From Naegleria gruberi (lineage: Eukaryota), in the NCBI GenBank assembly GCA_000004985.1, contig GG738847.1: a stretch of DNA of 64,000 nt. The stretch is one strand, 5' to 3'. Shown here piece after piece: positions 4,483 to 64,000 of the stretch. The notes under the pieces were generated by a model. The model saw only the letters and a program-made list of their open reading frames with translations, ran no database searches and was not told the DNA's origin. Positions within the stretch are counted from its first letter, which is position 1. Every line of letters starts with the position of its first letter. A program made the position numbers and the translations under genes.

Positions 4483-4553
4483 GGGGGCGAGGGGGAATCG
4501 AACCCCCGGCCACAGCTTTGGAGGCTGCGATGTTACCATTACACCACCGCCCC
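4483..4553 (-). tRNA. tRNA-Trp (anticodon CCA)
   Basis: Minus-strand sequence GGGGCGGTGGTGTAATGGTAACATCGCAGCCTCCAAAGCTGTGGCCGGGGGTTCGATTCCCCCTCGCCCCC. Acceptor stem pairs with one G-U, anticodon loop CTCCAAA, T-arm GGGGG-TTCGATT-CCCCC. Confidence 0.85.
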
Positions 4554-4615: not shown

Positions 4616-5920
4616 TTAAAAATCAACTGATTCCATACTTAAAACTCCTCGACTAATGCAAACTGAGTAAATCTTTGAATTGGTTGAAGCAGCTATTGCA
4701 CAATCTTCAACACCCTCAATCTTTGATGAAATCTGCTTATTTACCTGCCCTGCACTATTAACCAACACATAATCTTGAATTCTGGAAACTGAAATTCCAT
4801 TTCCAAGAGCTGCCAATCCATATCCTCTTGTTGCAAAATTATAATTTTTCTGAATTTCAATATTTCCAATATTGTCTGCCTTTGAAGTAATGCCAATTAA
4901 ATTTGGAATAGCTTTTGCATCAGAGCACACAATTCGAATATCAAACACAAAGTTATTCGAATCTAGTTTGGTCACATTAGCTGTTGGACTTGCACAATTT
5001 CCATGTTGTGCCACCCAAGGATTGAACAATATAACAGATTGCTTTCCAAAACTCTTTTCAACATTGATAACACTCAAATAATCACCACCTGAAACTATTG
5101 TTTGAACACTTGCAGCTGCTATCCATCCTGGAATTCCCAAATAACTCATTGACACGATGGTATATTCCTGATTGGAAAATATTGGACTAGTTGGTTGACC
5201 TGTCAAAACTCTTAATCTAAAAACATAATTTTGACCTCCAATGTAGATCATATCATTTCCATCCCCATATTCATTTGGTACCAGAAGCATGCTACCTGTT
5301 TCCATCACTATTCTATTGTTAACTTGCCAAACAATTTCCAAGCTTGACAATTTCACACCAATAATTTGATCGGTTGAAATAATTACTAAAATGTCATGTC
5401 TTTCAGAGTATGCAGTATCCCAAACAGATCCATCTTGGAGCATTTTCAAAACTCTGAATTCAGCTTTGAAATTATTCAAAGTGTCAAACTTTACAATAAT
5501 TGGGAATGTGTAATTGAGTGTCAAAACATTGACATATACTTCAGAAGATGTCAAAATAGATTGTGTTAACTCTGATGCGGATACGGATGCAGGTAACCCT
5601 GGAAATTCAGTGATTCTAGTTGAAAGACCAGTTTGTAAATCAACCTGAACTATTTTAACAGCATTTTTCATATCAGAAACTAAACTAAAGGCCTTTCCTT
5701 GCTTGGAAGAAAACACAAGTGATTGCTTGAAATCGCCAAAATAAACATCACCACAACCAGCACAAATATTGGCATTCTCCCAATTTGCATGCGATTTGCG
5801 AAAATTAAATTTGTTTGTTCTGAACTCATCAAATTTTTGTTGTGGCCATTGGCAGTTGACAAGTGTCAACAAGAGATGGAGAATAACACAAAGCACTAGA
5901 GTGTTTTTACTTGCTGACAT
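4616..5920 (-). CDS. Secreted hypothetical protein (434 aa) with N-terminal signal peptide
   Basis: Single ORF with ATG at 5920 after an A-run. Signal peptide MSASKNTLVLCVILHLLLTLVNC, several N-glyco sequons, no TM. No recognisable catalytic motif. Confidence 0.55.
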   Translation of the reverse strand: MSASKNTLVLCVILHLLLTLVNCQWPQQKFDEFRTNKFNFRKSHANWENANICAGCGDVYFGDFKQSLVFSSKQGKAFSLVSDMKNAVKIVQVDLQTGLSTRITEFPGLPASVSASELTQSILTSSEVYVNVLTLNYTFPIIVKFDTLNNFKAEFRVLKMLQDGSVWDTAYSERHDILVIISTDQIIGVKLSSLEIVWQVNNRIVMETGSMLLVPNEYGDGNDMIYIGGQNYVFRLRVLTGQPTSPIFSNQEYTIVSMSYLGIPGWIAAASVQTIVSGGDYLSVINVEKSFGKQSVILFNPWVAQHGNCASPTANVTKLDSNNFVFDIRIVCSDAKAIPNLIGITSKADNIGNIEIQKNYNFATRGYGLAALGNGISVSRIQDYVLVNSAGQVNKQISSKIEGVEDCAIAASTNSKIYSVCISRGVLSMESVDF

Positions 5921-10302: not shown

Positions 10303-10558
10303 TTTGTTTTTTTAATGTTTTTGAAAGCTTATATCCCTTCACTCGGCCATTGCTTTACAACGATAGGAAGTCCTACTTTACAATGTGTTGAGGAGTTACG
10401 ATAAGATCTATAAAAGGAACAGTAAAATCCTGTACATTACAATGAAAAATAATTAACTTCTGACCCCTCTTCATTGTTCCTTGAAATTCAACTTGATATT
10501 GAACTTTAACACTTGACAATATCAACTTCCAACTTCCCAAGCAAGCTCTACAAAAAAA

Positions 10559-11161
10559 ATGTCTCAAAACCTTCTCACGGCTGCCACTACCATGAACAAT
10601 CACGAAGAAGAGCTTGAAGTTCCAGGCTTTTCATGGATTATAGAATCGGAATTGGCTGGTATGAAATTTCCATCCCTTCCCGAACATTACAAAAATTTAA
10701 ATCATCATCACATTGGTTTGGTGATTTGTGTGAATGAGAGGGTAGCTTCCTTTGTTGAACAATTACCTCATTCAGAATATTTTAATTTAATTTCTAAAAA
10801 ATTACAAAAAATAGAAAATTGTGAAGAATTTACTTATAATGTTGGAAAATTGAATATTGCTCATTTTCCTATTAATGATTATGGAGTTCCTAATATGGAA
10901 TTAATGAATGAAATGATAAAATTGGTAGAATATGTGAGAAAGGTGGATTCGAACAGGGGAATTGTTGTGCATTGCATGGCTGGACTTTCTAGGACTGGAA
11001 TGATTCTGGCATGTTTGTTGGTGAGAGTATGGAAAATGACATTTGAGGAGTCAATCAAGTTGGTCAATCAGAAGAGAGGAAGAAATGGTAGAGGAGTAAT
11101 GACTAGCAAGCAAGAAGCATTTGTGGAAGATTTTTCAAAGACTATTCCTAATATTCAATAA
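10559..11161 (+). CDS. Dual-specificity protein phosphatase, DUSP23/VH1-like low-molecular-weight type (200 aa)
   Basis: aaaaaaaATG start. Catalytic CX5R loop VVHCMAGLSRTGMILACLLV. N-terminal FSWIIESELAGMKFP resembles DUSP23 (NFSWVLPGRLAG). Confidence 0.85.
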   Translation: MSQNLLTAATTMNNHEEELEVPGFSWIIESELAGMKFPSLPEHYKNLNHHHIGLVICVNERVASFVEQLPHSEYFNLISKKLQKIENCEEFTYNVGKLNIAHFPINDYGVPNMELMNEMIKLVEYVRKVDSNRGIVVHCMAGLSRTGMILACLLVRVWKMTFEESIKLVNQKRGRNGRGVMTSKQEAFVEDFSKTIPNIQ

Positions 11162-11245
11162 GATTACTATTTTTAAATACTATTTCGAATCTTACTAATT
11201 AAGAGCTAAAAATTTACTTCTTGAATGCGTCGACCGGGAATTGAA

Positions 11246-12029
11246 ATTTCCTTTTTTGGAATTCATTTAACTTTTAATTTTATGATGAAATTATGAATGT
11301 TTTATTTTAATATTATTCATGATGTGAAACATCATGTTGAATTCTGTTCATAATATTTAATTCATGATGTGAAACATCATGTTGAATTATTAACAAATGT
11401 TGTTCTTCAATTTTTAATTGAATGTTGTTCTTTCATTGAATGTTGGAAATATTGGAAAGTTGGAAATAAAAGTTGGAAGTTAGGTAACGGGTTATGGAAT
11501 TACCTAATGTGGAAATTGAATTCAATTTTGAAATTGAATTAATACAATGTTTTTTAAATTATTATTATTTAAATGTATTTCACACATTAATTTTGATAAT
11601 GTAATATTAAAGATATTGATAATTGGGTATAGGGAAACGGAATTTCCTAATTGGGAGTCATCACACAATAAATTAAATTTATTATTTATTCATTGATGAT
11701 GTTCACAAACTTTGAATTAACATATTACATGATGAATCAATTACAAAATTAACATCACTATTATTCTGGGGGCAAAATGAACATTAACCATCGGGTAACG
11801 GAAATTGACACATATACCACTTAATTAACAAATTGAATATTAACCATCGGGTAACGGATTTTAATACATGTATTAGTATGTTGATAATTGGTCGACGCAC
11901 AGAAATTTAAATAAACAGAATTAACAAGAATAAAAGCAAAATCCTACATAAGAGTTGGAGAACGGGAAATGAAATTCCCAAATTGAGAAACACAACATGC
12001 ACAATCACAATAATTCATACTATCAAAAT
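11246..12029. mobile_element. 784-bp non-coding repetitive insertion inside the tRNA-Gly T-loop, flanked by 8-bp target-site duplication (gaattgaa at 11238..11245 and 12030..12037); non-autonomous, no ORF
   Basis: Flanks reconstitute an intact tRNA when the insert plus one octamer copy is removed. Interior contains degenerate ~50-70 bp units carrying near-palindromic cores (ccgggaattgaaatttcc, gaacgggaaatgaaattccc, ggaaacggaatttcc, ggtaacgggttatggaattacc). Also a 20-bp direct repeat attaaccatcgggtaacgga at 11784 and 11841. Termini are attt...aaat. Confidence 0.6.
11315..11388. repeat. Two copies of a 29-bp direct repeat attcatgatgtgaaacatcatgttgaatt (11315..11343 and 11360..11388), each containing the hairpin catgatg-tgaaa-catcatg
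   Basis: Exact direct repeat read from sequence, period 45 bp, inside the insertion element. Followed by short tandem motifs tgaatgttgttct x2 and gttggaa(a)t x3. Confidence 0.8.
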
Positions 12030-12139
12030 GAATTGAACCCGGGTCACGGCGATGGCAACGCCGTATTCTACCACTAAACCATCGACGCTTCTTATTAAGG
12101 TACTAAGGCTCATCAAATTTTATTCAAAATGATGTTTTA

Positions 12140-33880: not shown

Positions 33881-34396
33881 ATGCCAACACATTCAACAAG
33901 CAATCAACACAATAACGCTCAAAAAAGCAATCAGTATCTTCATTCTCATCACGAATTAACCAAAGCCGACTCTAAAAGTTCAGATCTATCCAATGTCACT
34001 GTAGAAGTTATTGGTACGCATAAGGATATTCAATTGGATGATGATTCATTGGAGATTAAGGGAAATTTAAAGATTAAGAGAATTACACAGTCGATTGTCG
34101 AGTGGGATATTCCAATCTATGATGATATTATTATTGAGAGAATATACGGAGAGGGGAAATTGTATTATCATGATGATTATCAGACTAGTCATCATCATCA
34201 ACACGTACAAAATCCTCAACTCTTGAAACATCAACAATTAATTTATGATAGTCGTTCCTCTGATAGAATTCTATGCTCCAATACAAAATATATTCGCTTA
34301 CATAGTGGTCATGCCTATCTGTTCAAACTTGCAAAATATGAAGACTCGGATGAAATTGTGGTGCATTATAGAAATAAGTACTCTTTGGATCTGTAG
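33881..34396 (+). CDS. Hypothetical His/Gln-rich protein (171 aa)
   Basis: ATG at 33881 (aaaATGccaaca); frame start upstream is TTG. No family motif recognised. Confidence 0.4.
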   Translation: MPTHSTSNQHNNAQKSNQYLHSHHELTKADSKSSDLSNVTVEVIGTHKDIQLDDDSLEIKGNLKIKRITQSIVEWDIPIYDDIIIERIYGEGKLYYHDDYQTSHHHQHVQNPQLLKHQQLIYDSRSSDRILCSNTKYIRLHSGHAYLFKLAKYEDSDEIVVHYRNKYSLDL

Positions 34397-48456: not shown

Positions 48457-48528
48457 TCGGGTGTGGTATAGTGGTAGCATTCCAGACTGTCACTCTGGCG
48501 ACCCGGGTTCAATTCCCGGCACTCGAGT
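48457..48528 (+). tRNA. tRNA-Asp (anticodon GTC)
   Basis: TCGGGTGTGGTATAGTGGTAGCATTCCAGACTGTCACTCTGGCGACCCGGGTTCAATTCCCGGCACTCGAG. Anticodon arm CCAGA-CTGTCAC-TCTGG, T-arm CCGGG-TTCAATT-CCCGG. Close to canonical eukaryotic tRNA-Asp. Confidence 0.85.
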
Positions 48529-51471: not shown

Positions 51472-51521
51472 NNNNNNNNNNNNNNNNNNNNNNNNNNNNN
51501 NNNNNNNNNNNNNNNNNNNNN
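51472..51521. other. 50-N scaffold gap
   Basis: Exactly 50 n characters. Confidence 0.99.
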
Positions 51522-52806
51522 GACAGTAAAATCCTGTACATTACAATGAAAAATAATTAACTTCTGACCCCTCTTCATTGTTCCTTGAAATTCAACTTGA
51601 TATTGAACTTTAACACTTGACAATATCAACTTCCAACTTCCCAAGCAAGCTCTACAAAAAAAATGTCTCAAAACCTTCTCACGGCTGCCACTACCATGAA
51701 CAATCACGAAGAAGAGCTTGAAGTTCCAGGCTTTTCATGGATTATAGAATCGGAATTGGCTGGTATGAAATTTCCATCCCTTCCCGAACATTACAAAAAT
51801 TTAAATCATCATCACATTGGTTTGGTGATTTGTGTGAATGAGAGGGTAGCTTCCTTTGTTGAACAATTACCTCATTCAGAATATTTTAATTTAATTTCTA
51901 AAAAATTACAAAAAATAGAAAATTGTGAAGAATTTACTTATAATGTTGGAAAATTGAATATTGCTCATTTTCCTATTAATGATTATGGAGTTCCTAATAT
52001 GGAATTAATGAATGAAATGATAAAATTGGTAGAATATGTGAGAAAGGTGGATTCGAACAGGGGAATTGTTGTGCATTGCATGGCTGGACTTTCTAGGACT
52101 GGAATGATTCTGGCATGTTTGTTGGTGAGAGTATGGAAAATGACATTTGAGGAGTCAATCAAGTTGGTCAATCAGAAGAGAGGAAGAAATGGTAGAGGAG
52201 TAATGACTAGCAAGCAAGAAGCATTTGTGGAAGATTTTTCAAAGACTATTCCTAATATTCAATAAGATTACTATTTTTAAATACTATTTCGAATCTTACT
52301 AATTAAGAGCTAAAAATTTACTTCTTGAATGCGTCGACCGGGAATTGAAATTTCCTTTTTTGGAATTCATTTAACTTTTAATTTTATGATGAAATTATGA
52401 ATGTTTTATTTTAATATTATTCATGATGTGAAACATCATGTTGAATTCTGTTCATAATATTTAATTCATGATGTGAAACATCATGTTGAATTATTAACAA
52501 ATGTTGTTCTTCAATTTTTAATTGAATGTTGTTCTTTCATTGAATGTTGGAAATATTGGAAAGTTGGAAATAAAAGTTGGAAGTTAGGTAACGGGTTATG
52601 GAATTACCTAATGTGGAAATTGAATTCAATTTTGAAATTGAATTAATACAATGTTTTTTAAATTATTATTATTTAAATGTATTTCACACATTAATTTTGA
52701 TAATGTAATATTAAAGATATTGATAATTGGGTATAGGGAAACGGAATTTCCTAATTGGGAGTCATCACACAATAAATTAAATTTATTATTTATTCATTGA
52801 TGATGT
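51522..52806. repeat. Exact duplicate of 10418..11706 (offset 41104), bounded by N gaps
   Basis: Includes the DUSP23-like CDS and the left junction of the insertion element. Identity appears 100% over 1285 bp. The ORF track shows identical proteins at 10559..11161 and 51663..52265. Confidence 0.9.
51663..52265 (+). CDS. Second copy of the DUSP23-like phosphatase CDS (identical to 10559..11161)
   Basis: Identical 200-aa translation; lies within the gap-bounded duplicate block. Confidence 0.6.
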   Translation: MSQNLLTAATTMNNHEEELEVPGFSWIIESELAGMKFPSLPEHYKNLNHHHIGLVICVNERVASFVEQLPHSEYFNLISKKLQKIENCEEFTYNVGKLNIAHFPINDYGVPNMELMNEMIKLVEYVRKVDSNRGIVVHCMAGLSRTGMILACLLVRVWKMTFEESIKLVNQKRGRNGRGVMTSKQEAFVEDFSKTIPNIQ

Positions 52807-55800
52807 NNNNNNNNNNNNNNNNNNNNNNNNNNNNNNNNNNNNNNNNNNNNNNNNNNNNNNNNNNNNNNNNNNNNNNNNNNNNNNNNNNNNNNNNNNNNNN
52901 NNNNNNNNNNNNNNNNNNNNNNNNNNNNNNNNNNNNNNNNNNNNNNNNNNNNNNNNNNNNNNNNNNNNNNNNNNNNNNNNNNNNNNNNNNNNNNNNNNNN
53001 NNNNNNNNNNNNNNNNNNNNNNNNNNNNNNNNNNNNNNNNNNNNNNNNNNNNNNNNNNNNNNNNNNNNNNNNNNNNNNNNNNNNNNNNNNNNNNNNNNNN
53101 NNNNNNNNNNNNNNNNNNNNNNNNNNNNNNNNNNNNNNNNNNNNNNNNNNNNNNNNNNNNNNNNNNNNNNNNNNNNNNNNNNNNNNNNNNNNNNNNNNNN
53201 NNNNNNNNNNNNNNNNNNNNNNNNNNNNNNNNNNNNNNNNNNNNNNNNNNNNNNNNNNNNNNNNNNNNNNNNNNNNNNNNNNNNNNNNNNNNNNNNNNNN
53301 NNNNNNNNNNNNNNNNNNNNNNNNNNNNNNNNNNNNNNNNNNNNNNNNNNNNNNNNNNNNNNNNNNNNNNNNNNNNNNNNNNNNNNNNNNNNNNNNNNNN
53401 NNNNNNNNNNNNNNNNNNNNNNNNNNNNNNNNNNNNNNNNNNNNNNNNNNNNNNNNNNNNNNNNNNNNNNNNNNNNNNNNNNNNNNNNNNNNNNNNNNNN
53501 NNNNNNNNNNNNNNNNNNNNNNNNNNNNNNNNNNNNNNNNNNNNNNNNNNNNNNNNNNNNNNNNNNNNNNNNNNNNNNNNNNNNNNNNNNNNNNNNNNNN
53601 NNNNNNNNNNNNNNNNNNNNNNNNNNNNNNNNNNNNNNNNNNNNNNNNNNNNNNNNNNNNNNNNNNNNNNNNNNNNNNNNNNNNNNNNNNNNNNNNNNNN
53701 NNNNNNNNNNNNNNNNNNNNNNNNNNNNNNNNNNNNNNNNNNNNNNNNNNNNNNNNNNNNNNNNNNNNNNNNNNNNNNNNNNNNNNNNNNNNNNNNNNNN
53801 NNNNNNNNNNNNNNNNNNNNNNNNNNNNNNNNNNNNNNNNNNNNNNNNNNNNNNNNNNNNNNNNNNNNNNNNNNNNNNNNNNNNNNNNNNNNNNNNNNNN
53901 NNNNNNNNNNNNNNNNNNNNNNNNNNNNNNNNNNNNNNNNNNNNNNNNNNNNNNNNNNNNNNNNNNNNNNNNNNNNNNNNNNNNNNNNNNNNNNNNNNNN
54001 NNNNNNNNNNNNNNNNNNNNNNNNNNNNNNNNNNNNNNNNNNNNNNNNNNNNNNNNNNNNNNNNNNNNNNNNNNNNNNNNNNNNNNNNNNNNNNNNNNNN
54101 NNNNNNNNNNNNNNNNNNNNNNNNNNNNNNNNNNNNNNNNNNNNNNNNNNNNNNNNNNNNNNNNNNNNNNNNNNNNNNNNNNNNNNNNNNNNNNNNNNNN
54201 NNNNNNNNNNNNNNNNNNNNNNNNNNNNNNNNNNNNNNNNNNNNNNNNNNNNNNNNNNNNNNNNNNNNNNNNNNNNNNNNNNNNNNNNNNNNNNNNNNNN
54301 NNNNNNNNNNNNNNNNNNNNNNNNNNNNNNNNNNNNNNNNNNNNNNNNNNNNNNNNNNNNNNNNNNNNNNNNNNNNNNNNNNNNNNNNNNNNNNNNNNNN
54401 NNNNNNNNNNNNNNNNNNNNNNNNNNNNNNNNNNNNNNNNNNNNNNNNNNNNNNNNNNNNNNNNNNNNNNNNNNNNNNNNNNNNNNNNNNNNNNNNNNNN
54501 NNNNNNNNNNNNNNNNNNNNNNNNNNNNNNNNNNNNNNNNNNNNNNNNNNNNNNNNNNNNNNNNNNNNNNNNNNNNNNNNNNNNNNNNNNNNNNNNNNNN
54601 NNNNNNNNNNNNNNNNNNNNNNNNNNNNNNNNNNNNNNNNNNNNNNNNNNNNNNNNNNNNNNNNNNNNNNNNNNNNNNNNNNNNNNNNNNNNNNNNNNNN
54701 NNNNNNNNNNNNNNNNNNNNNNNNNNNNNNNNNNNNNNNNNNNNNNNNNNNNNNNNNNNNNNNNNNNNNNNNNNNNNNNNNNNNNNNNNNNNNNNNNNNN
54801 NNNNNNNNNNNNNNNNNNNNNNNNNNNNNNNNNNNNNNNNNNNNNNNNNNNNNNNNNNNNNNNNNNNNNNNNNNNNNNNNNNNNNNNNNNNNNNNNNNNN
54901 NNNNNNNNNNNNNNNNNNNNNNNNNNNNNNNNNNNNNNNNNNNNNNNNNNNNNNNNNNNNNNNNNNNNNNNNNNNNNNNNNNNNNNNNNNNNNNNNNNNN
55001 NNNNNNNNNNNNNNNNNNNNNNNNNNNNNNNNNNNNNNNNNNNNNNNNNNNNNNNNNNNNNNNNNNNNNNNNNNNNNNNNNNNNNNNNNNNNNNNNNNNN
55101 NNNNNNNNNNNNNNNNNNNNNNNNNNNNNNNNNNNNNNNNNNNNNNNNNNNNNNNNNNNNNNNNNNNNNNNNNNNNNNNNNNNNNNNNNNNNNNNNNNNN
55201 NNNNNNNNNNNNNNNNNNNNNNNNNNNNNNNNNNNNNNNNNNNNNNNNNNNNNNNNNNNNNNNNNNNNNNNNNNNNNNNNNNNNNNNNNNNNNNNNNNNN
55301 NNNNNNNNNNNNNNNNNNNNNNNNNNNNNNNNNNNNNNNNNNNNNNNNNNNNNNNNNNNNNNNNNNNNNNNNNNNNNNNNNNNNNNNNNNNNNNNNNNNN
55401 NNNNNNNNNNNNNNNNNNNNNNNNNNNNNNNNNNNNNNNNNNNNNNNNNNNNNNNNNNNNNNNNNNNNNNNNNNNNNNNNNNNNNNNNNNNNNNNNNNNN
55501 NNNNNNNNNNNNNNNNNNNNNNNNNNNNNNNNNNNNNNNNNNNNNNNNNNNNNNNNNNNNNNNNNNNNNNNNNNNNNNNNNNNNNNNNNNNNNNNNNNNN
55601 NNNNNNNNNNNNNNNNNNNNNNNNNNNNNNNNNNNNNNNNNNNNNNNNNNNNNNNNNNNNNNNNNNNNNNNNNNNNNNNNNNNNNNNNNNNNNNNNNNNN
55701 NNNNNNNNNNNNNNNNNNNNNNNNNNNNNNNNNNNNNNNNNNNNNNNNNNNNNNNNNNNNNNNNNNNNNNNNNNNNNNNNNNNNNNNNNNNNNNNNNNNN

Positions 55801-58800
55801 NNNNNNNNNNNNNNNNNNNNNNNNNNNNNNNNNNNNNNNNNNNNNNNNNNNNNNNNNNNNNNNNNNNNNNNNNNNNNNNNNNNNNNNNNNNNNNNNNNNN
55901 NNNNNNNNNNNNNNNNNNNNNNNNNNNNNNNNNNNNNNNNNNNNNNNNNNNNNNNNNNNNNNNNNNNNNNNNNNNNNNNNNNNNNNNNNNNNNNNNNNNN
56001 NNNNNNNNNNNNNNNNNNNNNNNNNNNNNNNNNNNNNNNNNNNNNNNNNNNNNNNNNNNNNNNNNNNNNNNNNNNNNNNNNNNNNNNNNNNNNNNNNNNN
56101 NNNNNNNNNNNNNNNNNNNNNNNNNNNNNNNNNNNNNNNNNNNNNNNNNNNNNNNNNNNNNNNNNNNNNNNNNNNNNNNNNNNNNNNNNNNNNNNNNNNN
56201 NNNNNNNNNNNNNNNNNNNNNNNNNNNNNNNNNNNNNNNNNNNNNNNNNNNNNNNNNNNNNNNNNNNNNNNNNNNNNNNNNNNNNNNNNNNNNNNNNNNN
56301 NNNNNNNNNNNNNNNNNNNNNNNNNNNNNNNNNNNNNNNNNNNNNNNNNNNNNNNNNNNNNNNNNNNNNNNNNNNNNNNNNNNNNNNNNNNNNNNNNNNN
56401 NNNNNNNNNNNNNNNNNNNNNNNNNNNNNNNNNNNNNNNNNNNNNNNNNNNNNNNNNNNNNNNNNNNNNNNNNNNNNNNNNNNNNNNNNNNNNNNNNNNN
56501 NNNNNNNNNNNNNNNNNNNNNNNNNNNNNNNNNNNNNNNNNNNNNNNNNNNNNNNNNNNNNNNNNNNNNNNNNNNNNNNNNNNNNNNNNNNNNNNNNNNN
56601 NNNNNNNNNNNNNNNNNNNNNNNNNNNNNNNNNNNNNNNNNNNNNNNNNNNNNNNNNNNNNNNNNNNNNNNNNNNNNNNNNNNNNNNNNNNNNNNNNNNN
56701 NNNNNNNNNNNNNNNNNNNNNNNNNNNNNNNNNNNNNNNNNNNNNNNNNNNNNNNNNNNNNNNNNNNNNNNNNNNNNNNNNNNNNNNNNNNNNNNNNNNN
56801 NNNNNNNNNNNNNNNNNNNNNNNNNNNNNNNNNNNNNNNNNNNNNNNNNNNNNNNNNNNNNNNNNNNNNNNNNNNNNNNNNNNNNNNNNNNNNNNNNNNN
56901 NNNNNNNNNNNNNNNNNNNNNNNNNNNNNNNNNNNNNNNNNNNNNNNNNNNNNNNNNNNNNNNNNNNNNNNNNNNNNNNNNNNNNNNNNNNNNNNNNNNN
57001 NNNNNNNNNNNNNNNNNNNNNNNNNNNNNNNNNNNNNNNNNNNNNNNNNNNNNNNNNNNNNNNNNNNNNNNNNNNNNNNNNNNNNNNNNNNNNNNNNNNN
57101 NNNNNNNNNNNNNNNNNNNNNNNNNNNNNNNNNNNNNNNNNNNNNNNNNNNNNNNNNNNNNNNNNNNNNNNNNNNNNNNNNNNNNNNNNNNNNNNNNNNN
57201 NNNNNNNNNNNNNNNNNNNNNNNNNNNNNNNNNNNNNNNNNNNNNNNNNNNNNNNNNNNNNNNNNNNNNNNNNNNNNNNNNNNNNNNNNNNNNNNNNNNN
57301 NNNNNNNNNNNNNNNNNNNNNNNNNNNNNNNNNNNNNNNNNNNNNNNNNNNNNNNNNNNNNNNNNNNNNNNNNNNNNNNNNNNNNNNNNNNNNNNNNNNN
57401 NNNNNNNNNNNNNNNNNNNNNNNNNNNNNNNNNNNNNNNNNNNNNNNNNNNNNNNNNNNNNNNNNNNNNNNNNNNNNNNNNNNNNNNNNNNNNNNNNNNN
57501 NNNNNNNNNNNNNNNNNNNNNNNNNNNNNNNNNNNNNNNNNNNNNNNNNNNNNNNNNNNNNNNNNNNNNNNNNNNNNNNNNNNNNNNNNNNNNNNNNNNN
57601 NNNNNNNNNNNNNNNNNNNNNNNNNNNNNNNNNNNNNNNNNNNNNNNNNNNNNNNNNNNNNNNNNNNNNNNNNNNNNNNNNNNNNNNNNNNNNNNNNNNN
57701 NNNNNNNNNNNNNNNNNNNNNNNNNNNNNNNNNNNNNNNNNNNNNNNNNNNNNNNNNNNNNNNNNNNNNNNNNNNNNNNNNNNNNNNNNNNNNNNNNNNN
57801 NNNNNNNNNNNNNNNNNNNNNNNNNNNNNNNNNNNNNNNNNNNNNNNNNNNNNNNNNNNNNNNNNNNNNNNNNNNNNNNNNNNNNNNNNNNNNNNNNNNN
57901 NNNNNNNNNNNNNNNNNNNNNNNNNNNNNNNNNNNNNNNNNNNNNNNNNNNNNNNNNNNNNNNNNNNNNNNNNNNNNNNNNNNNNNNNNNNNNNNNNNNN
58001 NNNNNNNNNNNNNNNNNNNNNNNNNNNNNNNNNNNNNNNNNNNNNNNNNNNNNNNNNNNNNNNNNNNNNNNNNNNNNNNNNNNNNNNNNNNNNNNNNNNN
58101 NNNNNNNNNNNNNNNNNNNNNNNNNNNNNNNNNNNNNNNNNNNNNNNNNNNNNNNNNNNNNNNNNNNNNNNNNNNNNNNNNNNNNNNNNNNNNNNNNNNN
58201 NNNNNNNNNNNNNNNNNNNNNNNNNNNNNNNNNNNNNNNNNNNNNNNNNNNNNNNNNNNNNNNNNNNNNNNNNNNNNNNNNNNNNNNNNNNNNNNNNNNN
58301 NNNNNNNNNNNNNNNNNNNNNNNNNNNNNNNNNNNNNNNNNNNNNNNNNNNNNNNNNNNNNNNNNNNNNNNNNNNNNNNNNNNNNNNNNNNNNNNNNNNN
58401 NNNNNNNNNNNNNNNNNNNNNNNNNNNNNNNNNNNNNNNNNNNNNNNNNNNNNNNNNNNNNNNNNNNNNNNNNNNNNNNNNNNNNNNNNNNNNNNNNNNN
58501 NNNNNNNNNNNNNNNNNNNNNNNNNNNNNNNNNNNNNNNNNNNNNNNNNNNNNNNNNNNNNNNNNNNNNNNNNNNNNNNNNNNNNNNNNNNNNNNNNNNN
58601 NNNNNNNNNNNNNNNNNNNNNNNNNNNNNNNNNNNNNNNNNNNNNNNNNNNNNNNNNNNNNNNNNNNNNNNNNNNNNNNNNNNNNNNNNNNNNNNNNNNN
58701 NNNNNNNNNNNNNNNNNNNNNNNNNNNNNNNNNNNNNNNNNNNNNNNNNNNNNNNNNNNNNNNNNNNNNNNNNNNNNNNNNNNNNNNNNNNNNNNNNNNN

Positions 58801-61800
58801 NNNNNNNNNNNNNNNNNNNNNNNNNNNNNNNNNNNNNNNNNNNNNNNNNNNNNNNNNNNNNNNNNNNNNNNNNNNNNNNNNNNNNNNNNNNNNNNNNNNN
58901 NNNNNNNNNNNNNNNNNNNNNNNNNNNNNNNNNNNNNNNNNNNNNNNNNNNNNNNNNNNNNNNNNNNNNNNNNNNNNNNNNNNNNNNNNNNNNNNNNNNN
59001 NNNNNNNNNNNNNNNNNNNNNNNNNNNNNNNNNNNNNNNNNNNNNNNNNNNNNNNNNNNNNNNNNNNNNNNNNNNNNNNNNNNNNNNNNNNNNNNNNNNN
59101 NNNNNNNNNNNNNNNNNNNNNNNNNNNNNNNNNNNNNNNNNNNNNNNNNNNNNNNNNNNNNNNNNNNNNNNNNNNNNNNNNNNNNNNNNNNNNNNNNNNN
59201 NNNNNNNNNNNNNNNNNNNNNNNNNNNNNNNNNNNNNNNNNNNNNNNNNNNNNNNNNNNNNNNNNNNNNNNNNNNNNNNNNNNNNNNNNNNNNNNNNNNN
59301 NNNNNNNNNNNNNNNNNNNNNNNNNNNNNNNNNNNNNNNNNNNNNNNNNNNNNNNNNNNNNNNNNNNNNNNNNNNNNNNNNNNNNNNNNNNNNNNNNNNN
59401 NNNNNNNNNNNNNNNNNNNNNNNNNNNNNNNNNNNNNNNNNNNNNNNNNNNNNNNNNNNNNNNNNNNNNNNNNNNNNNNNNNNNNNNNNNNNNNNNNNNN
59501 NNNNNNNNNNNNNNNNNNNNNNNNNNNNNNNNNNNNNNNNNNNNNNNNNNNNNNNNNNNNNNNNNNNNNNNNNNNNNNNNNNNNNNNNNNNNNNNNNNNN
59601 NNNNNNNNNNNNNNNNNNNNNNNNNNNNNNNNNNNNNNNNNNNNNNNNNNNNNNNNNNNNNNNNNNNNNNNNNNNNNNNNNNNNNNNNNNNNNNNNNNNN
59701 NNNNNNNNNNNNNNNNNNNNNNNNNNNNNNNNNNNNNNNNNNNNNNNNNNNNNNNNNNNNNNNNNNNNNNNNNNNNNNNNNNNNNNNNNNNNNNNNNNNN
59801 NNNNNNNNNNNNNNNNNNNNNNNNNNNNNNNNNNNNNNNNNNNNNNNNNNNNNNNNNNNNNNNNNNNNNNNNNNNNNNNNNNNNNNNNNNNNNNNNNNNN
59901 NNNNNNNNNNNNNNNNNNNNNNNNNNNNNNNNNNNNNNNNNNNNNNNNNNNNNNNNNNNNNNNNNNNNNNNNNNNNNNNNNNNNNNNNNNNNNNNNNNNN
60001 NNNNNNNNNNNNNNNNNNNNNNNNNNNNNNNNNNNNNNNNNNNNNNNNNNNNNNNNNNNNNNNNNNNNNNNNNNNNNNNNNNNNNNNNNNNNNNNNNNNN
60101 NNNNNNNNNNNNNNNNNNNNNNNNNNNNNNNNNNNNNNNNNNNNNNNNNNNNNNNNNNNNNNNNNNNNNNNNNNNNNNNNNNNNNNNNNNNNNNNNNNNN
60201 NNNNNNNNNNNNNNNNNNNNNNNNNNNNNNNNNNNNNNNNNNNNNNNNNNNNNNNNNNNNNNNNNNNNNNNNNNNNNNNNNNNNNNNNNNNNNNNNNNNN
60301 NNNNNNNNNNNNNNNNNNNNNNNNNNNNNNNNNNNNNNNNNNNNNNNNNNNNNNNNNNNNNNNNNNNNNNNNNNNNNNNNNNNNNNNNNNNNNNNNNNNN
60401 NNNNNNNNNNNNNNNNNNNNNNNNNNNNNNNNNNNNNNNNNNNNNNNNNNNNNNNNNNNNNNNNNNNNNNNNNNNNNNNNNNNNNNNNNNNNNNNNNNNN
60501 NNNNNNNNNNNNNNNNNNNNNNNNNNNNNNNNNNNNNNNNNNNNNNNNNNNNNNNNNNNNNNNNNNNNNNNNNNNNNNNNNNNNNNNNNNNNNNNNNNNN
60601 NNNNNNNNNNNNNNNNNNNNNNNNNNNNNNNNNNNNNNNNNNNNNNNNNNNNNNNNNNNNNNNNNNNNNNNNNNNNNNNNNNNNNNNNNNNNNNNNNNNN
60701 NNNNNNNNNNNNNNNNNNNNNNNNNNNNNNNNNNNNNNNNNNNNNNNNNNNNNNNNNNNNNNNNNNNNNNNNNNNNNNNNNNNNNNNNNNNNNNNNNNNN
60801 NNNNNNNNNNNNNNNNNNNNNNNNNNNNNNNNNNNNNNNNNNNNNNNNNNNNNNNNNNNNNNNNNNNNNNNNNNNNNNNNNNNNNNNNNNNNNNNNNNNN
60901 NNNNNNNNNNNNNNNNNNNNNNNNNNNNNNNNNNNNNNNNNNNNNNNNNNNNNNNNNNNNNNNNNNNNNNNNNNNNNNNNNNNNNNNNNNNNNNNNNNNN
61001 NNNNNNNNNNNNNNNNNNNNNNNNNNNNNNNNNNNNNNNNNNNNNNNNNNNNNNNNNNNNNNNNNNNNNNNNNNNNNNNNNNNNNNNNNNNNNNNNNNNN
61101 NNNNNNNNNNNNNNNNNNNNNNNNNNNNNNNNNNNNNNNNNNNNNNNNNNNNNNNNNNNNNNNNNNNNNNNNNNNNNNNNNNNNNNNNNNNNNNNNNNNN
61201 NNNNNNNNNNNNNNNNNNNNNNNNNNNNNNNNNNNNNNNNNNNNNNNNNNNNNNNNNNNNNNNNNNNNNNNNNNNNNNNNNNNNNNNNNNNNNNNNNNNN
61301 NNNNNNNNNNNNNNNNNNNNNNNNNNNNNNNNNNNNNNNNNNNNNNNNNNNNNNNNNNNNNNNNNNNNNNNNNNNNNNNNNNNNNNNNNNNNNNNNNNNN
61401 NNNNNNNNNNNNNNNNNNNNNNNNNNNNNNNNNNNNNNNNNNNNNNNNNNNNNNNNNNNNNNNNNNNNNNNNNNNNNNNNNNNNNNNNNNNNNNNNNNNN
61501 NNNNNNNNNNNNNNNNNNNNNNNNNNNNNNNNNNNNNNNNNNNNNNNNNNNNNNNNNNNNNNNNNNNNNNNNNNNNNNNNNNNNNNNNNNNNNNNNNNNN
61601 NNNNNNNNNNNNNNNNNNNNNNNNNNNNNNNNNNNNNNNNNNNNNNNNNNNNNNNNNNNNNNNNNNNNNNNNNNNNNNNNNNNNNNNNNNNNNNNNNNNN
61701 NNNNNNNNNNNNNNNNNNNNNNNNNNNNNNNNNNNNNNNNNNNNNNNNNNNNNNNNNNNNNNNNNNNNNNNNNNNNNNNNNNNNNNNNNNNNNNNNNNNN

Positions 61801-64000
61801 NNNNNNNNNNNNNNNNNNNNNNNNNNNNNNNNNNNNNNNNNNNNNNNNNNNNNNNNNNNNNNNNNNNNNNNNNNNNNNNNNNNNNNNNNNNNNNNNNNNN
61901 NNNNNNNNNNNNNNNNNNNNNNNNNNNNNNNNNNNNNNNNNNNNNNNNNNNNNNNNNNNNNNNNNNNNNNNNNNNNNNNNNNNNNNNNNNNNNNNNNNNN
62001 NNNNNNNNNNNNNNNNNNNNNNNNNNNNNNNNNNNNNNNNNNNNNNNNNNNNNNNNNNNNNNNNNNNNNNNNNNNNNNNNNNNNNNNNNNNNNNNNNNNN
62101 NNNNNNNNNNNNNNNNNNNNNNNNNNNNNNNNNNNNNNNNNNNNNNNNNNNNNNNNNNNNNNNNNNNNNNNNNNNNNNNNNNNNNNNNNNNNNNNNNNNN
62201 NNNNNNNNNNNNNNNNNNNNNNNNNNNNNNNNNNNNNNNNNNNNNNNNNNNNNNNNNNNNNNNNNNNNNNNNNNNNNNNNNNNNNNNNNNNNNNNNNNNN
62301 NNNNNNNNNNNNNNNNNNNNNNNNNNNNNNNNNNNNNNNNNNNNNNNNNNNNNNNNNNNNNNNNNNNNNNNNNNNNNNNNNNNNNNNNNNNNNNNNNNNN
62401 NNNNNNNNNNNNNNNNNNNNNNNNNNNNNNNNNNNNNNNNNNNNNNNNNNNNNNNNNNNNNNNNNNNNNNNNNNNNNNNNNNNNNNNNNNNNNNNNNNNN
62501 NNNNNNNNNNNNNNNNNNNNNNNNNNNNNNNNNNNNNNNNNNNNNNNNNNNNNNNNNNNNNNNNNNNNNNNNNNNNNNNNNNNNNNNNNNNNNNNNNNNN
62601 NNNNNNNNNNNNNNNNNNNNNNNNNNNNNNNNNNNNNNNNNNNNNNNNNNNNNNNNNNNNNNNNNNNNNNNNNNNNNNNNNNNNNNNNNNNNNNNNNNNN
62701 NNNNNNNNNNNNNNNNNNNNNNNNNNNNNNNNNNNNNNNNNNNNNNNNNNNNNNNNNNNNNNNNNNNNNNNNNNNNNNNNNNNNNNNNNNNNNNNNNNNN
62801 NNNNNNNNNNNNNNNNNNNNNNNNNNNNNNNNNNNNNNNNNNNNNNNNNNNNNNNNNNNNNNNNNNNNNNNNNNNNNNNNNNNNNNNNNNNNNNNNNNNN
62901 NNNNNNNNNNNNNNNNNNNNNNNNNNNNNNNNNNNNNNNNNNNNNNNNNNNNNNNNNNNNNNNNNNNNNNNNNNNNNNNNNNNNNNNNNNNNNNNNNNNN
63001 NNNNNNNNNNNNNNNNNNNNNNNNNNNNNNNNNNNNNNNNNNNNNNNNNNNNNNNNNNNNNNNNNNNNNNNNNNNNNNNNNNNNNNNNNNNNNNNNNNNN
63101 NNNNNNNNNNNNNNNNNNNNNNNNNNNNNNNNNNNNNNNNNNNNNNNNNNNNNNNNNNNNNNNNNNNNNNNNNNNNNNNNNNNNNNNNNNNNNNNNNNNN
63201 NNNNNNNNNNNNNNNNNNNNNNNNNNNNNNNNNNNNNNNNNNNNNNNNNNNNNNNNNNNNNNNNNNNNNNNNNNNNNNNNNNNNNNNNNNNNNNNNNNNN
63301 NNNNNNNNNNNNNNNNNNNNNNNNNNNNNNNNNNNNNNNNNNNNNNNNNNNNNNNNNNNNNNNNNNNNNNNNNNNNNNNNNNNNNNNNNNNNNNNNNNNN
63401 NNNNNNNNNNNNNNNNNNNNNNNNNNNNNNNNNNNNNNNNNNNNNNNNNNNNNNNNNNNNNNNNNNNNNNNNNNNNNNNNNNNNNNNNNNNNNNNNNNNN
63501 NNNNNNNNNNNNNNNNNNNNNNNNNNNNNNNNNNNNNNNNNNNNNNNNNNNNNNNNNNNNNNNNNNNNNNNNNNNNNNNNNNNNNNNNNNNNNNNNNNNN
63601 NNNNNNNNNNNNNNNNNNNNNNNNNNNNNNNNNNNNNNNNNNNNNNNNNNNNNNNNNNNNNNNNNNNNNNNNNNNNNNNNNNNNNNNNNNNNNNNNNNNN
63701 NNNNNNNNNNNNNNNNNNNNNNNNNNNNNNNNNNNNNNNNNNNNNNNNNNNNNNNNNNNNNNNNNNNNNNNNNNNNNNNNNNNNNNNNNNNNNNNNNNNN
63801 NNNNNNNNNNNNNNNNNNNNNNNNNNNNNNNNNNNNNNNNNNNNNNNNNNNNNNNNNNNNNNNNNNNNNNNNNNNNNNNNNNNNNNNNNNNNNNNNNNNN
63901 NNNNNNNNNNNNNNNNNNNNNNNNNNNNNNNNNNNNNNNNNNNNNNNNNNNNNNNNNNNNNNNNNNNNNNNNNNNNNNNNNNNNNNNNNNNNNNNNNNNN
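52807..64000. other. Assembly gap (11,194 N)
   Basis: Uninterrupted n run to the end of the window. Confidence 0.99.

What the first reader, a model, noticed from the sequence alone, without database searches (positions are those of the whole stretch)
11246..12029. Insert interior is built from near-palindromic kappaB-like units that resemble the tRNA T-arm it landed in
The insert carries at least six degenerate units with cores such as gaacgggaaatgaaattccc, ggaaacggaatttcc, ggtaacgggttatggaattacc and ggtaacggaaattgac. The left junction itself reads gaccgggaattgaaatttcc, which is tRNA T-arm plus the element end, the same pattern as the internal units. The cores are imperfect palindromes of the GGGAAWTTCC type and could form hairpins or bind dimeric proteins. 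There is a 20-bp direct repeat attaaccatcgggtaacgga at 11784 and 11841, and a 29-bp hairpin-containing direct repeat at 11315..11388. The interior string ggtcgacgca at 11900 matches the tRNA acceptor end, and aaccatcg matches the tRNA 5' end as read on the plus strand. The element may be partly derived from tRNA sequence, for example a tRNA-related SINE-like or satellite-like array, or it may target by homology.
Basis: partly seen in the sequence, partly recalled or inferred. Interest (0 to 1): 0.55.

Follow-up and report, generated by a model that had tools for sequence, protein, structure and literature searches.

The report
Mobile element splitting a tRNA-Gly gene
A 784-base non-coding mobile element sits in the T-loop of a Naegleria gruberi glycine tRNA gene, and its interior is largely worn copies of its own junctions with that tRNA, which suggests (from a single copy) a family that repeatedly inserts at this one spot.

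Summary
The window is Naegleria gruberi. A 784-bp, 25% GC, ORF-less insert (11246-12029) splits a tRNA-Gly(GCC) gene in its T-loop and is flanked by an exact 8-bp duplication (GAATTGAA). Removing the insert plus one repeat restores a perfect 71-nt cloverleaf.

The internal units are far above chance. AACGG occurs 5 times against 0.16 expected. Three of the six GGxAA..TTx'CC dyads in 51.5 kb lie in the insert.

They are not kappaB sites: no strict consensus match exists. They are decayed copies of the element's own two junctions with the tRNA:
- three left-junction or mini-element copies (M1, M2, M3);
- two right-junction copies (R1, R2). R2 carries a decayed copy of the whole 5' part of tRNA-Gly, down to TCGACGC at the correct spacing.

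All lie in one orientation. There are no terminal inverted repeats.

Best reading: a composite, non-autonomous element, most likely a cut-and-paste DNA transposon, built by earlier insertions at the same T-loop site. This is Dada-like behaviour at a different site and with a different duplication length.

Only one copy could be examined, because the rest of the genome was not searchable. The mobilising enzyme and the true copy number are therefore unknown. The SINE, solo-LTR, intron and hAT labels each fail at least one tested feature.

The parts
11226..11245 (-). 3' part of the split tRNA-Gly(GCC) gene: T-loop, 3' T-stem strand, acceptor strand and discriminator A (TTCAATTCCCGGTCGACGCA in tRNA sense)
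   Evidence: Joining it to 12038-12088 gives a perfect 71-nt cloverleaf in ARAGORN.
11238..11245 (.). Left copy of the 8-bp direct duplication GAATTGAA. In tRNA sense this is TTCAATTC, the T-loop plus the first base of the 3' T-stem strand.
   Evidence: The duplication is exactly 8 bp; the neighbouring bases differ on both sides.
11246..12029 (+). The insert: 784 bp, 25.4% GC, no ORF longer than 57 codons, no terminal inverted repeats. Ends are 5'-ATTTCC...CAAAAT-3'.
11310..11388 (+). Two 34-nt direct repeats (11310-11343 and 11355-11388, 94% identical), each holding the hairpin CATGATGT-GAA-ACATCATG. Role unknown.
   Evidence: -6.5 kcal/mol, z about -2.5 to -2.7.
11396..11478 (+). Short degenerate repeats: AATGTTGTTCTT(C)ATT twice, and four copies of GTTGGAA or TTGGAAA.
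11470..11548 (+). M1, a worn 'left junction + mini-element + TSD-like' unit. It contains dyad U2 (GGTAA-N12-TTACC, 11483-11504).
   Evidence: score 21.8 against shuffles 15.5 +/- 1.9; p = 0.0005; p = 0.001; alignment.
11618..11724 (+). M2, a second such unit. It contains U3 (GGGAAACGGAATTTCCTAATTGGGA, 11632-11656), then right-end-like ATCACACAATAAATT...CAAACTT and TGAATTAAC.
   Evidence: score 22.7, reached by 0 of 400 shuffles; global score 12.5 against -4.2 +/- 3.7, 0 of 2000; alignment.
11755..11824 (+). R1, a worn copy of the right junction: element right end (TCACTATTATTC..CAAAAT), a TSD-like stretch, then tRNA T-stem, variable region and D-loop (TACCACTTAA).
   Evidence: 24.4 against 16.1 +/- 1.9; 46 of 80 columns identical, p = 0.0005.
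11826..11898 (+). R2, a second right-junction copy and tandem duplicate of R1 (56-nt period). It continues through a decayed copy of the whole 5' part of tRNA-Gly to the acceptor strand TCGACGC (11892-11898).
   Evidence: score 24.8, 0 of 400 shuffles; 49 of 84 columns identical, 0 of 2000; spacing 34 nt against 32 nt, and TCGACGC occurs only here and in the real tRNA in 51.5 kb.
11951..12029 (+). M3. U6 (GAACGGGAAATGAAATTCCC, 11960-11979) matches the real left junction at 17 of 20 positions. It is followed by a 56-bp mini-element (11974-12029) that supplies the real right end.
   Evidence: 0.00 expected matches; score 24.9..
12030..12037 (.). Right copy of the 8-bp duplication GAATTGAA.
12038..12088 (-). 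5' part of the split tRNA-Gly(GCC): acceptor, D-arm, anticodon arm, variable region and 5' T-stem strand. Together with 12030-12037 it keeps the A box and 10 of 11 bases of the B box, and it runs into ATTTTG in the insert.
   Evidence: (the tRNA model scores only 21.2 bits, below the gathering score, while the gene is interrupted).
51522..52806 (+). Redundant contig at the scaffold end, identical to 10418-11702. It holds the left junction and the first 457 bp of the insert, and stops inside the insert. It is not an independent copy.

Best explanation
A non-autonomous mobile element inserted into the T-loop of a functional tRNA-Gly(GCC) gene of Naegleria gruberi. The insertion duplicated 8 bp of target and inactivated that gene copy.

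The interior of the element is a record of earlier events of the same kind. It holds decayed copies of 'tRNA 3' T-stem + octamer + element left end' (M1, M2, M3) and of 'element right end + octamer + tRNA 5' part' (R1, R2), all in one orientation.

The simplest history has three steps:
1. Members of this family inserted repeatedly at the same T-loop site, in the same orientation.
2. Tandem or nested insertions, internal deletions and aberrant gap repair fused element ends with pieces of tRNA-Gly into a composite.
3. That composite later moved as one unit into the present, still perfect, tRNA gene.

This implies site- and orientation-specific integration into a multicopy RNA gene, as in Dada DNA transposons. 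The enzyme would be supplied in trans by an autonomous relative that was not seen here.

Shown: the insertion, the 8-bp duplication, the lack of TIRs and ORFs, and the homology of the internal units to both junctions and to tRNA-Gly.

Inferred: mobility of a family, site specificity, the cut-and-paste mechanism, and the order of events.
For: - Excision restores a perfect tRNA, and the duplication is exactly 8 bp.
- The interrupted gene fails the Rfam tRNA threshold.
- The organism is N. gruberi: a neighbouring protein is 100% identical to an N. gruberi predicted protein.
- Junction probes match the interior far above shuffles and above all non-tRNA real sequence in the window.
- R1 and R2 align globally with the right junction plus the tRNA 5' part.
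- TCGACGC sits at the right spacing and is unique to the relic and the real tRNA.
- M1, M2 and M3 align as whole mini-units.
- The three best tRNA-to-insert local alignments are all on the gene strand. Their summed score is 33, against 23.8 +/- 1.9 in shuffles (0 of 400).
- The relic junctions lie at the same position as the real ones (alignments A1 and A2).
- Both element ends are precise in the relics, and M3 looks like an internally deleted copy. This is typical of DNA-transposon derivatives rather than 5'-truncated retroposons.
- No TIRs were found. This is also true of Dada, which inserts inside tRNA and snRNA genes, forms tandem copies separated by the TSD, and carries target-derived sequence with it (PMC3706591, PMC8869645).
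Against: - Only one copy could be examined. The second occurrence in the window is a redundant contig.
- Two metagenome scans found nothing, and the source genome could not be searched. Multiplicity, site specificity and mobility of a family are therefore inferred from relics inside a single element.
- The 8-bp duplication and the T-loop site differ from published Dada families, which give 6-7 bp duplications at nt 8-13 or the anticodon stem.
- No transposase was found in the window.
- No Naegleria Dada homologue could be identified.
- Simple tandem insertion does not explain why M1-M3 each carry a new copy of the CGGG flank. Upstream of CGGG they resemble each other more than they resemble the tRNA acceptor.
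- tRNA-Asp, with the same 20-nt T-arm, is uninterrupted in this window.
Confidence: 0.5

Rival explanations
1. The internal units are not relics. They are selected binding sites (sub-terminal repeats) for the transposase or recombinase that moves the element. The core is GG(T/A)AACGG and CGGG(A/T)A, with dyads GGxAA..TTx'CC. The tRNA T-arm is chosen as a target because it resembles these sites (target mimicry). This is compatible with the main explanation and could hold alongside it.
For: - AACGG and GNWAACGG are strongly enriched and strictly oriented.
- The real tRNA carries GGTCACGG 4 nt from the duplicated octamer.
- The dyads keep their pairing through different middle bases (G:C, A:T, T:A) and fold better than shuffles (z = -2.5 to -3).
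- Upstream of CGGG the units resemble each other more than the tRNA.
- Ac/Ds elements (8-bp TSD) use AAACGG sub-terminal hexamers as transposase sites (PMC3260210).
- In Dada, a sub-terminal repeat recurs in the target gene.
Against: - R1 and R2 similarity runs 45-50 nt into the tRNA, through the D-loop and the 5' acceptor, at the correct spacing. That is far beyond what a binding site needs.
- All sites are in one orientation, whereas sub-terminal transposase sites normally occur inverted at the two ends.
- Dyad spacers vary (5, 6 and 12 nt).
- No sub-terminal repeat sits at equal distance from the duplication in element and target, as described for Dada.
Confidence: 0.25
2. Integration was by a site-specific (tyrosine or serine) recombinase acting on a circular intermediate. 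In that case the 8 bp GAATTGAA is a shared crossover core and not a target-site duplication, as with Cryptons or with prokaryotic elements that integrate in tRNA T-arms.
For: - 8 bp is the size of a typical tyrosine-recombinase overlap region.
- The target is the dyad-symmetric T-arm (CCGGG-AATTGAA-CCCGG).
- The element has no TIRs.
- Insertion is strictly oriented.
- Repeated integration at the hybrid sites would also give arrays of junction-like sequences.
Against: - The reconstructed element-side site (..CAAAAT GAATTGAA ATTTCC..) has AT-rich arms unlike the GC-rich arms of the tRNA site, so there is no shared core-binding repeat.
- There is no recombinase gene here.
- No eukaryotic Crypton is known to me to target tRNA genes (my own knowledge).
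- One copy cannot separate a shared core from a TSD.
Confidence: 0.12
3. The insert is a tRNA-derived SINE or another retroposon, inserted by target-primed reverse transcription. The internal tRNA-like pieces would descend from its tRNA-derived promoter region.
For: - Part of the interior is tRNA-Gly-like.
- An 8-bp duplication is within the range for LINE-mediated insertion.
- Both ends are A/T-rich.
Against: - The tRNA-like pieces are internal, 130-280 bp from either end, and not at a 5' head.
- Their A-box and B-box equivalents are destroyed.
- They are joined to copies of the element's own ends, which is what junctions look like, not promoters.
- There is no poly(A) or simple-repeat tail.
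- The relics keep both ends precise, rather than being 5'-truncated.
- Rfam finds no tRNA or other RNA family inside the insert.
Confidence: 0.07
4. Nothing is mobile. The structure would be a local rearrangement or decayed tandem array of tRNA-Gly genes, or an assembly artefact.
For: - The assembly is imperfect here: there is a redundant contig and a 50-N gap at the scaffold end.
- The internal units form a loose array.
Against: - The outer tRNA halves are perfect and fit together exactly with an exact 8-bp duplication, whereas the inner tRNA-like pieces are only about 57% identical. Decay in place should have hit all pieces alike.
- The left junction was assembled twice with identical sequence.
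Confidence: 0.04

Closest known systems
Dada superfamily of DNA transposons (Kojima & Jurka 2013, PMC3706591; Kojima 2022, PMC8869645)
   Same: - They insert at a fixed position and in a fixed orientation inside multicopy small RNA genes. These include tRNA genes of a protist (Perkinsus) and tRNA-Gly-GCC in fish.
- They have no terminal inverted repeats.
- They give short target duplications.
- Tandem copies separated by the duplication are known.
- Target-derived sequence can travel with the element.
- Sequence near the ends recurs in the target gene.
   Different: - Published sites are tRNA nt 8-13 (A box) or the anticodon stem, not the T-loop.
- Published duplications are 6-7 bp and G/C-rich (TGGCGC type). 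Here the duplication is 8 bp and A/T-rich.
- No Dada transposase could be linked to this element.
- Dada has not been reported from Naegleria in the papers I could search.
- Internal arrays of junction relics are not described for Dada.
hAT superfamily non-autonomous elements (Ac/Ds; PMC3260210)
   Same: - 8-bp target-site duplication.
- Short non-coding derivatives.
- Repeated (A/T)AACGG words, like the AAACGG transposase-binding hexamers of Ac.
- Internal 'filler' and rearrangements arising from aberrant gap repair.
   Different: - No terminal inverted repeats, and no YARNG termini.
- All AACGG words are in one orientation and are spread over the right two-thirds of the insert rather than near both ends.
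- hAT elements are not site-specific.
Site-specific non-LTR retrotransposons of multicopy RNA genes (R1/R2 and relatives; cited in PMC3706591)
   Same: Precise insertion site inside a conserved multicopy RNA gene. The strategy is the same: hit a redundant, conserved target.
   Different: - Here there is no reverse-transcriptase remnant, no 3' tail and no 5' truncation pattern.
- Both ends are precise, and an internally deleted mini-copy is present.
Prokaryotic integrative elements and eukaryotic Cryptons (tyrosine recombinases)
   Same: Integration into the dyad-symmetric T-arm of a tRNA gene, with a short repeat on both sides and no TIRs.
   Different: - Prokaryotic elements carry a copy of the tRNA 3' end and so restore the gene. 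This element destroys the gene.
- There is no recombinase gene.
- The arms of the inferred element-side site do not resemble the tRNA arms.

Membership tests
Dada DNA transposons | Insertion at a specific site inside a multicopy small RNA gene (tRNA, snRNA, 5S) | tested here: met
   The insert lies inside tRNA-Gly(GCC). Internal relics show the same junction position. Family-wide specificity remains unproven because only one copy was seen.
Dada DNA transposons | No terminal inverted repeats | tested here: met
   Alignment of one end against the reverse complement of the other is not above shuffles at 30-150 nt.
Dada DNA transposons | 6-7 bp target-site duplication | tested here: not met
   The duplication is exactly 8 bp. 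The authors note apparent 8-bp cases that they reinterpret as 6 bp. One copy cannot settle this.
Dada DNA transposons | [quoted passage not shown] | tested here: inconclusive
   No equidistant pair was found. Target-like and junction-like sequences do occur inside the element, but at other distances and in direct orientation.
Dada DNA transposons | Dada-type DDE transposase (autonomous partner in the same genome) | not testable with these tools
   The insert has no ORF and the window has no transposase. A Dada-tG_PMar query found only Perkinsus proteins. A profile search gave 125 unnamed hits. The N. gruberi genome was not searchable.
hAT superfamily (non-autonomous) | 8-bp target-site duplication | tested here: met
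hAT superfamily (non-autonomous) | Short terminal inverted repeats, typically starting YARNG | tested here: not met
   The ends are ATTTCC... and ...CAAAAT, with no TIR above chance.
hAT superfamily (non-autonomous) | Sub-terminal transposase-binding repeats at both ends | tested here: inconclusive
   Five AACGG words are present, all on the + strand, at 11486-11961. They are also explained as parts of junction relics.
tRNA-derived SINE | tRNA-related head with A and B boxes at the 5' end of the element | tested here: not met
   The tRNA-like segments are internal (11755-11898) and degenerate. There is no Rfam tRNA hit inside the insert.
tRNA-derived SINE | A-rich or simple-repeat 3' tail | tested here: not met
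   The ends read ...CTATCAAAAT on the + strand and ...AAAAAAGGAAAT on the - strand. There is no tail or terminal tandem repeat.
Solo LTR | TG...CA termini and a 4-6 bp TSD | tested here: not met
   The termini are AT...AT and the duplication is 8 bp.
tRNA intron | No duplication of exon sequence; canonical 37/38 position or bulge-helix-bulge context | tested here: not met
   8 bp of the T-loop are present on both sides of the insert, which lies in the T-loop. No Rfam intron or ribozyme family was found.
Crypton / tyrosine-recombinase element | A constant short core shared by the element and every target; a recombinase gene in autonomous copies | not testable with these tools
   This needs several independent copies. 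The inferred element-side arms do not resemble the tRNA arms (read directly from the sequence).
NF-kappaB binding sites | Match to GGGRNWYYCC | tested here: not met
   There is one match in the whole window, at 34104, and none in the insert.

The most novel reading that the evidence does not exclude
Naegleria harbours a previously undescribed family of mobile elements that integrate specifically, and in one orientation, into the T-loop of tRNA-Gly (possibly of all tRNAs sharing the GGGTTCAATTCCCGG T-arm). Its integration machinery recognises the composite 'element end + T-arm' sequence. The element therefore accumulates internal target mimics and can re-insert into itself. This would be either a new lineage or superfamily of target-specific transposons, or a targeting mode guided by element-borne copies of the target.
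Probability: 0.15. Interest if true: 0.75.

Novelty: new variant of a known kind. Interest (0 to 1): 0.5.

Why it matters
Strictly site-specific DNA transposons are rare. Dada is the only described eukaryotic superfamily, and such elements are of interest both as 'safe-harbour' parasites of multicopy RNA genes and as leads for targeted DNA integration.

A T-loop-specific element in a heterolobosean would add a new target site and a deep-branching host. The fossil junctions inside the element would give a built-in record of repeated homing.

On the practical side:
- This tRNA-Gly gene copy is a pseudogene that tRNA finders half-call. ARAGORN reports a 72-nt tRNA-Gly at 12018-12089 by borrowing insert sequence.
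- The element is the sort of repeat that can break assemblies, and a redundant contig here stops inside it.

If a genome-wide search shows it to be a single-copy oddity, the finding reduces to one ordinary transposon insertion.

Tried and rejected
- **Other copies in the window.** blastn of the insert against the window found only itself and the redundant contig 51522-52806.
- **Other copies elsewhere.** Exact scans of metagenome contigs with the left junction (24-mer) and the internal 20-mer found nothing.
- **Source genome.** Look-ups of window proteins, including the 100% identical N. gruberi entry P0113, are 'not on record'. Genomic copies could not be fetched.
- **Empty site in relatives.**
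  - Phosphatase orthologues in a Logan Naegleria sp., N. lovaniensis and N. fowleri (loci L001-L004) are not syntenic.
  - Those loci carry no tRNA and no similarity to the insert.
- **Terminal inverted repeats.** None above chance.
- **RNA families.** Nothing in the insert at the gathering or E-value thresholds, apart from the broken tRNA.
- **Global fold.** Not better than shuffles.
- **kappaB consensus.** Absent from the insert.
- **Inverted 3' acceptor reading of GGTCGACGCA.** A plain local alignment is not significant; 21% of shuffles reach the score. I replaced it with the direct 5' acceptor relic reading.
- **Dada transposase in Naegleria.**
  - The Perkinsus Dada-tG core, taken from the paper's dataset, found only Perkinsus proteins.
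  - It has no Pfam family. The zebrafish Dada-tL core matches DUF6729.
  - A profile search of 1.84 billion representatives gave 125 hits, but none carries an organism name. This was a dead end.
- **Transposase in the window.** None among 31 ORFs.
- **Literature.** No paper links Naegleria with tRNA-targeting elements. The N. gruberi genome paper is not held.
- **P-element resemblance.** CATGATG... and CCACTTAA resemble P-element sequences that I recall from memory. I rejected this because both are internal and the second is explained by the D-loop relic.
- **NUMT or rDNA-plasmid fragment.** Considered and set aside. Such insertions are not expected to give an exact 8-bp duplication (my own knowledge), there is no coding remnant, and the interior is homologous to the junctions. 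This was not tested against those sequences.
Full report
**What the window is**

The sequence is about 33% G+C and gene-dense, with long uninterrupted ORFs for eukaryotic proteins: Aquarius, a P4-ATPase, actin and WDR5. The Aquarius ORF is 59% identical to N. fowleri and 58% to N. lovaniensis. The phosphatase ORF next to the finding (10559-11161) is 100% identical to a 'predicted protein [Naegleria gruberi]'. The window is therefore N. gruberi nuclear DNA at the end of a scaffold. Positions 52807-64000 are N. After a 50-N gap, 51522-52806 repeats 10418-11702 exactly. That stretch is a redundant contig that stops inside the insert, not an independent copy.

**The insertion**

ARAGORN calls a tRNA-Gly(GCC) at 12018-12089 on the minus strand, but Rfam's tRNA model does not reach its threshold there. 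Reading the sequence shows why. The last 20 nt of the tRNA lie 800 bp away, at 11226-11245.

The gene is split in its T-loop by 784 bp (11246-12029), flanked by an exact 8-bp direct duplication. The duplication is GAATTGAA, at 11238-11245 and 12030-12037. In tRNA sense it reads TTCAATTC, which is the T-loop plus the first base of the 3' T-stem strand. Deleting the insert and one repeat gives a perfect 71-nt cloverleaf.

The insert is 25.4% G+C and has no ORF above 57 codons. It matches no Rfam family. It has no terminal inverted repeats above chance, and as a whole it folds no better than shuffles. Its ends read 5'-ATTTCC...CAAAAT-3'.

All the quoted strings are present, within 1-10 bases of the stated coordinates.

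They are not chance:
- AACGG occurs 5 times against 0.16 expected, all on the + strand. ATTAAC occurs 7 times against 0.32 expected.
- GNWAACGG occurs 6 times in 51.5 kb, and 4 of those are in the insert. Of six dyads of the form GGxAA-N3-14-TTx'CC with a complementary middle base, three are in the insert.
- The 20-mer at the left junction, allowing 3 mismatches, has 0.00 expected matches in shuffles of the whole window. It nevertheless recurs at 11960-11979 with 17 of 20 identical.

The hairpins these dyads could form are weak, at -3 to -4 kcal/mol. No strict kappaB consensus occurs in the insert. 'kappaB-like' is therefore only a visual impression.

**What the units are**

The key result came from using the two real junctions as probes against the interior. 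I used a scoring scheme that gives G/C matches more weight, because in this A/T-rich DNA plain scoring is swamped by A/T matches.

The left-junction probe finds three interior matches:
- 11488-11514, score 21.8;
- 11632-11656, score 22.7;
- 11960-11979, score 24.9.

Shuffles give 15.5 +/- 1.9, with a maximum of 22.6. Each match spans both the tRNA-derived half and the element-derived half: CGGG plus an octamer-like stretch, then ATTYCC-WAATTGRGA.

The right-junction probe finds two matches, at 11755-11811 (24.4) and 11826-11857 (24.8). Shuffles give 16.1 +/- 1.9, with a maximum of 22.1. These also span both halves: TCACxATxATTC..CAAAAT from the element, then an octamer-like stretch and CC(AT)CGGGT(A)ACGG from the tRNA.

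As a control on real sequence, I scored 131 tiles of the window outside this region. Only the tiles holding the true tRNA-Trp and tRNA-Asp genes reach the right-junction scores. None reaches the left-junction scores.

Global alignments extend the picture:
- The R2 region (11822-11902) aligns with the element's right end, the octamer and the entire 5' part of tRNA-Gly. 49 of 84 columns are identical, and 0 of 2000 shuffles reach the score.
- R1 gives 46 of 80 identical columns (p = 0.0005), including the D-loop TACCACT(T)AA.
- In R2 the acceptor strand TCGACGC lies 34 nt after ACGG, against 32 nt in the real gene. That heptamer occurs nowhere else on this strand in 51.5 kb. The chance of finding it within +/- 5 nt of the expected position is about 4e-5.
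- The three left-junction-like units extend into whole mini-units: flank-like piece, octamer-like stretch, a short body with left-end-like and right-end-like sequence, then an octamer-like stretch. They align with one another. M2 against M3 scores 12.5 against -4.2 +/- 3.7 (0 of 2000). M1 against M3 gives p = 0.001.

The last mini-unit, M3, ends in the real right end of the insert. Read along the + strand, the order is:
1. real left junction;
2. a 220-bp stretch with hairpin repeats and short repeats;
3. M1;
4. M2;
5. R1 and R2, which are a 56-nt tandem pair;
6. a 50-60 nt spacer;
7. M3;
8. real right junction.

All units lie in the same orientation as the real junctions.

**Interpretation**

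The outer tRNA halves are perfect and fit exactly. The inner tRNA-like pieces are only about 57% identical to the tRNA. Decay in place would have affected all pieces alike. The 784 bp therefore arrived as a unit, relatively recently, in an intact gene, and it already carried old junction relics.

The most economical source of those relics is earlier insertion of related elements at the same T-loop position and in the same orientation. Tandem or nested insertion, internal deletion or aberrant gap repair would then have fused element ends with bits of tRNA-Gly.

That makes the family site- and orientation-specific for a multicopy RNA gene. Three features point towards a cut-and-paste DNA transposon moved in trans rather than a retroposon:
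- both ends are precise in the relics;
- an internally deleted mini-copy (M3) is present;
- there is no 3' tail.

These last steps are inference from a single element.

**Comparison with known systems**

- **Dada.** Dada transposons are the closest in behaviour. They insert at fixed sites inside tRNA, snRNA and 5S genes, lack TIRs, occur as tandem copies separated by the duplication, sometimes carry target-derived sequence, and have end-proximal motifs that recur in the target (PMC3706591, PMC8869645). However, their duplications are 6-7 bp and G/C-rich. Their tRNA sites are nt 8-13 or the anticodon stem. No Dada transposase could be tied to Naegleria. Membership is therefore untested on the defining protein and not met on duplication length.
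- **hAT.** hAT shares the 8-bp duplication, and, loosely, AAACGG-type words (PMC3260210). It fails on TIRs.
- **SINE, solo LTR, tRNA intron and kappaB-site readings.** Each fails at least one tested feature.
- **Recombinase.** A tyrosine- or serine-recombinase mechanism with an 8-bp core cannot be excluded from one copy.

**What remains unexplained**

- Each of M1-M3 carries its own CGGG flank-like piece. Upstream of that piece the units resemble each other (TTGGGTAACGGG) more than the tRNA acceptor. This leaves room for the rival view that some units are selected protein-binding sites that mimic the target.
- The left third of the insert, with two 34-nt hairpin repeats, has no assigned role.
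- tRNA-Asp(GTC) at 48457-48527 shares the identical 20-nt T-arm and is intact.

**Limits**

No other genomic copy could be retrieved:
- the window holds none;
- two metagenome scans were empty;
- the source genome is closed to the look-up tools;
- related Naegleria loci are not syntenic.

Copy number, target range, the enzyme, and whether Repbase already lists this repeat are all open.

**Verdict**

Interest is moderate. It would rise if a genome-wide search confirms a family confined to this site.

Noticed in passing
window 51472-52806 and 52807-64000: After a 50-N gap, 51522-52806 is an exact second copy of 10418-11702 (phosphatase gene, tRNA 3' part and the first 457 bp of the insert). It stops inside the insert. 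The rest of the window is N padding. It is probably a redundant or allelic contig placed at the scaffold end.
   Followed up: partly
window 48457-48527 (+): tRNA-Asp(GTC) shares the identical 20-nt T-arm GACCCGGGTTCAATTCCCGG with the split tRNA-Gly, including the duplicated octamer, and is not interrupted. It is a potential alternative target.
   Followed up: partly
window 12018-12089 (-): ARAGORN reports a complete 72-nt tRNA-Gly here by borrowing insert sequence for the 3' T-stem and acceptor. Rfam scores it at 21.2 bits, below the threshold of 29. This is a false 'intact' tRNA call.
   Followed up: yes
window 12020-12037 (-): On the tRNA strand, the truncated 5' part keeps the A box and 10 of 11 bases of the B box, and is followed at once by ATTTTG from the insert. 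This could act as an RNA polymerase III stop. Inference only.
   Followed up: no
window 11318-11336, 11363-11381 and 11815-11824: CATGATGTGAAACATCATG hairpins and TACCACTTAA recall, from memory, the start of the P-element inverted repeat and the P transposase binding site. P elements also make 8-bp duplications. Both sequences are internal, and the second fits the tRNA D-loop relic. I judged this a coincidence.
   Followed up: partly
window 4616-5920 (-) and 4784-4804: A 434-codon ORF without any Pfam match lies directly beside tRNA-Trp (4483-4553). It contains one of the three GGxAA..TTx'CC dyads found outside the insert (GGAAACTGAAATTCCATTTCC).
   Followed up: no
L001 (Logan SRR25266747 contig, 21.6 kb): This contig comes from an unnamed organism. 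Its phosphatase is 73% identical to the N. gruberi one, closer than N. fowleri or N. lovaniensis. Its gene neighbours differ and it has no tRNA nearby. It is probably another Naegleria species.
   Followed up: partly
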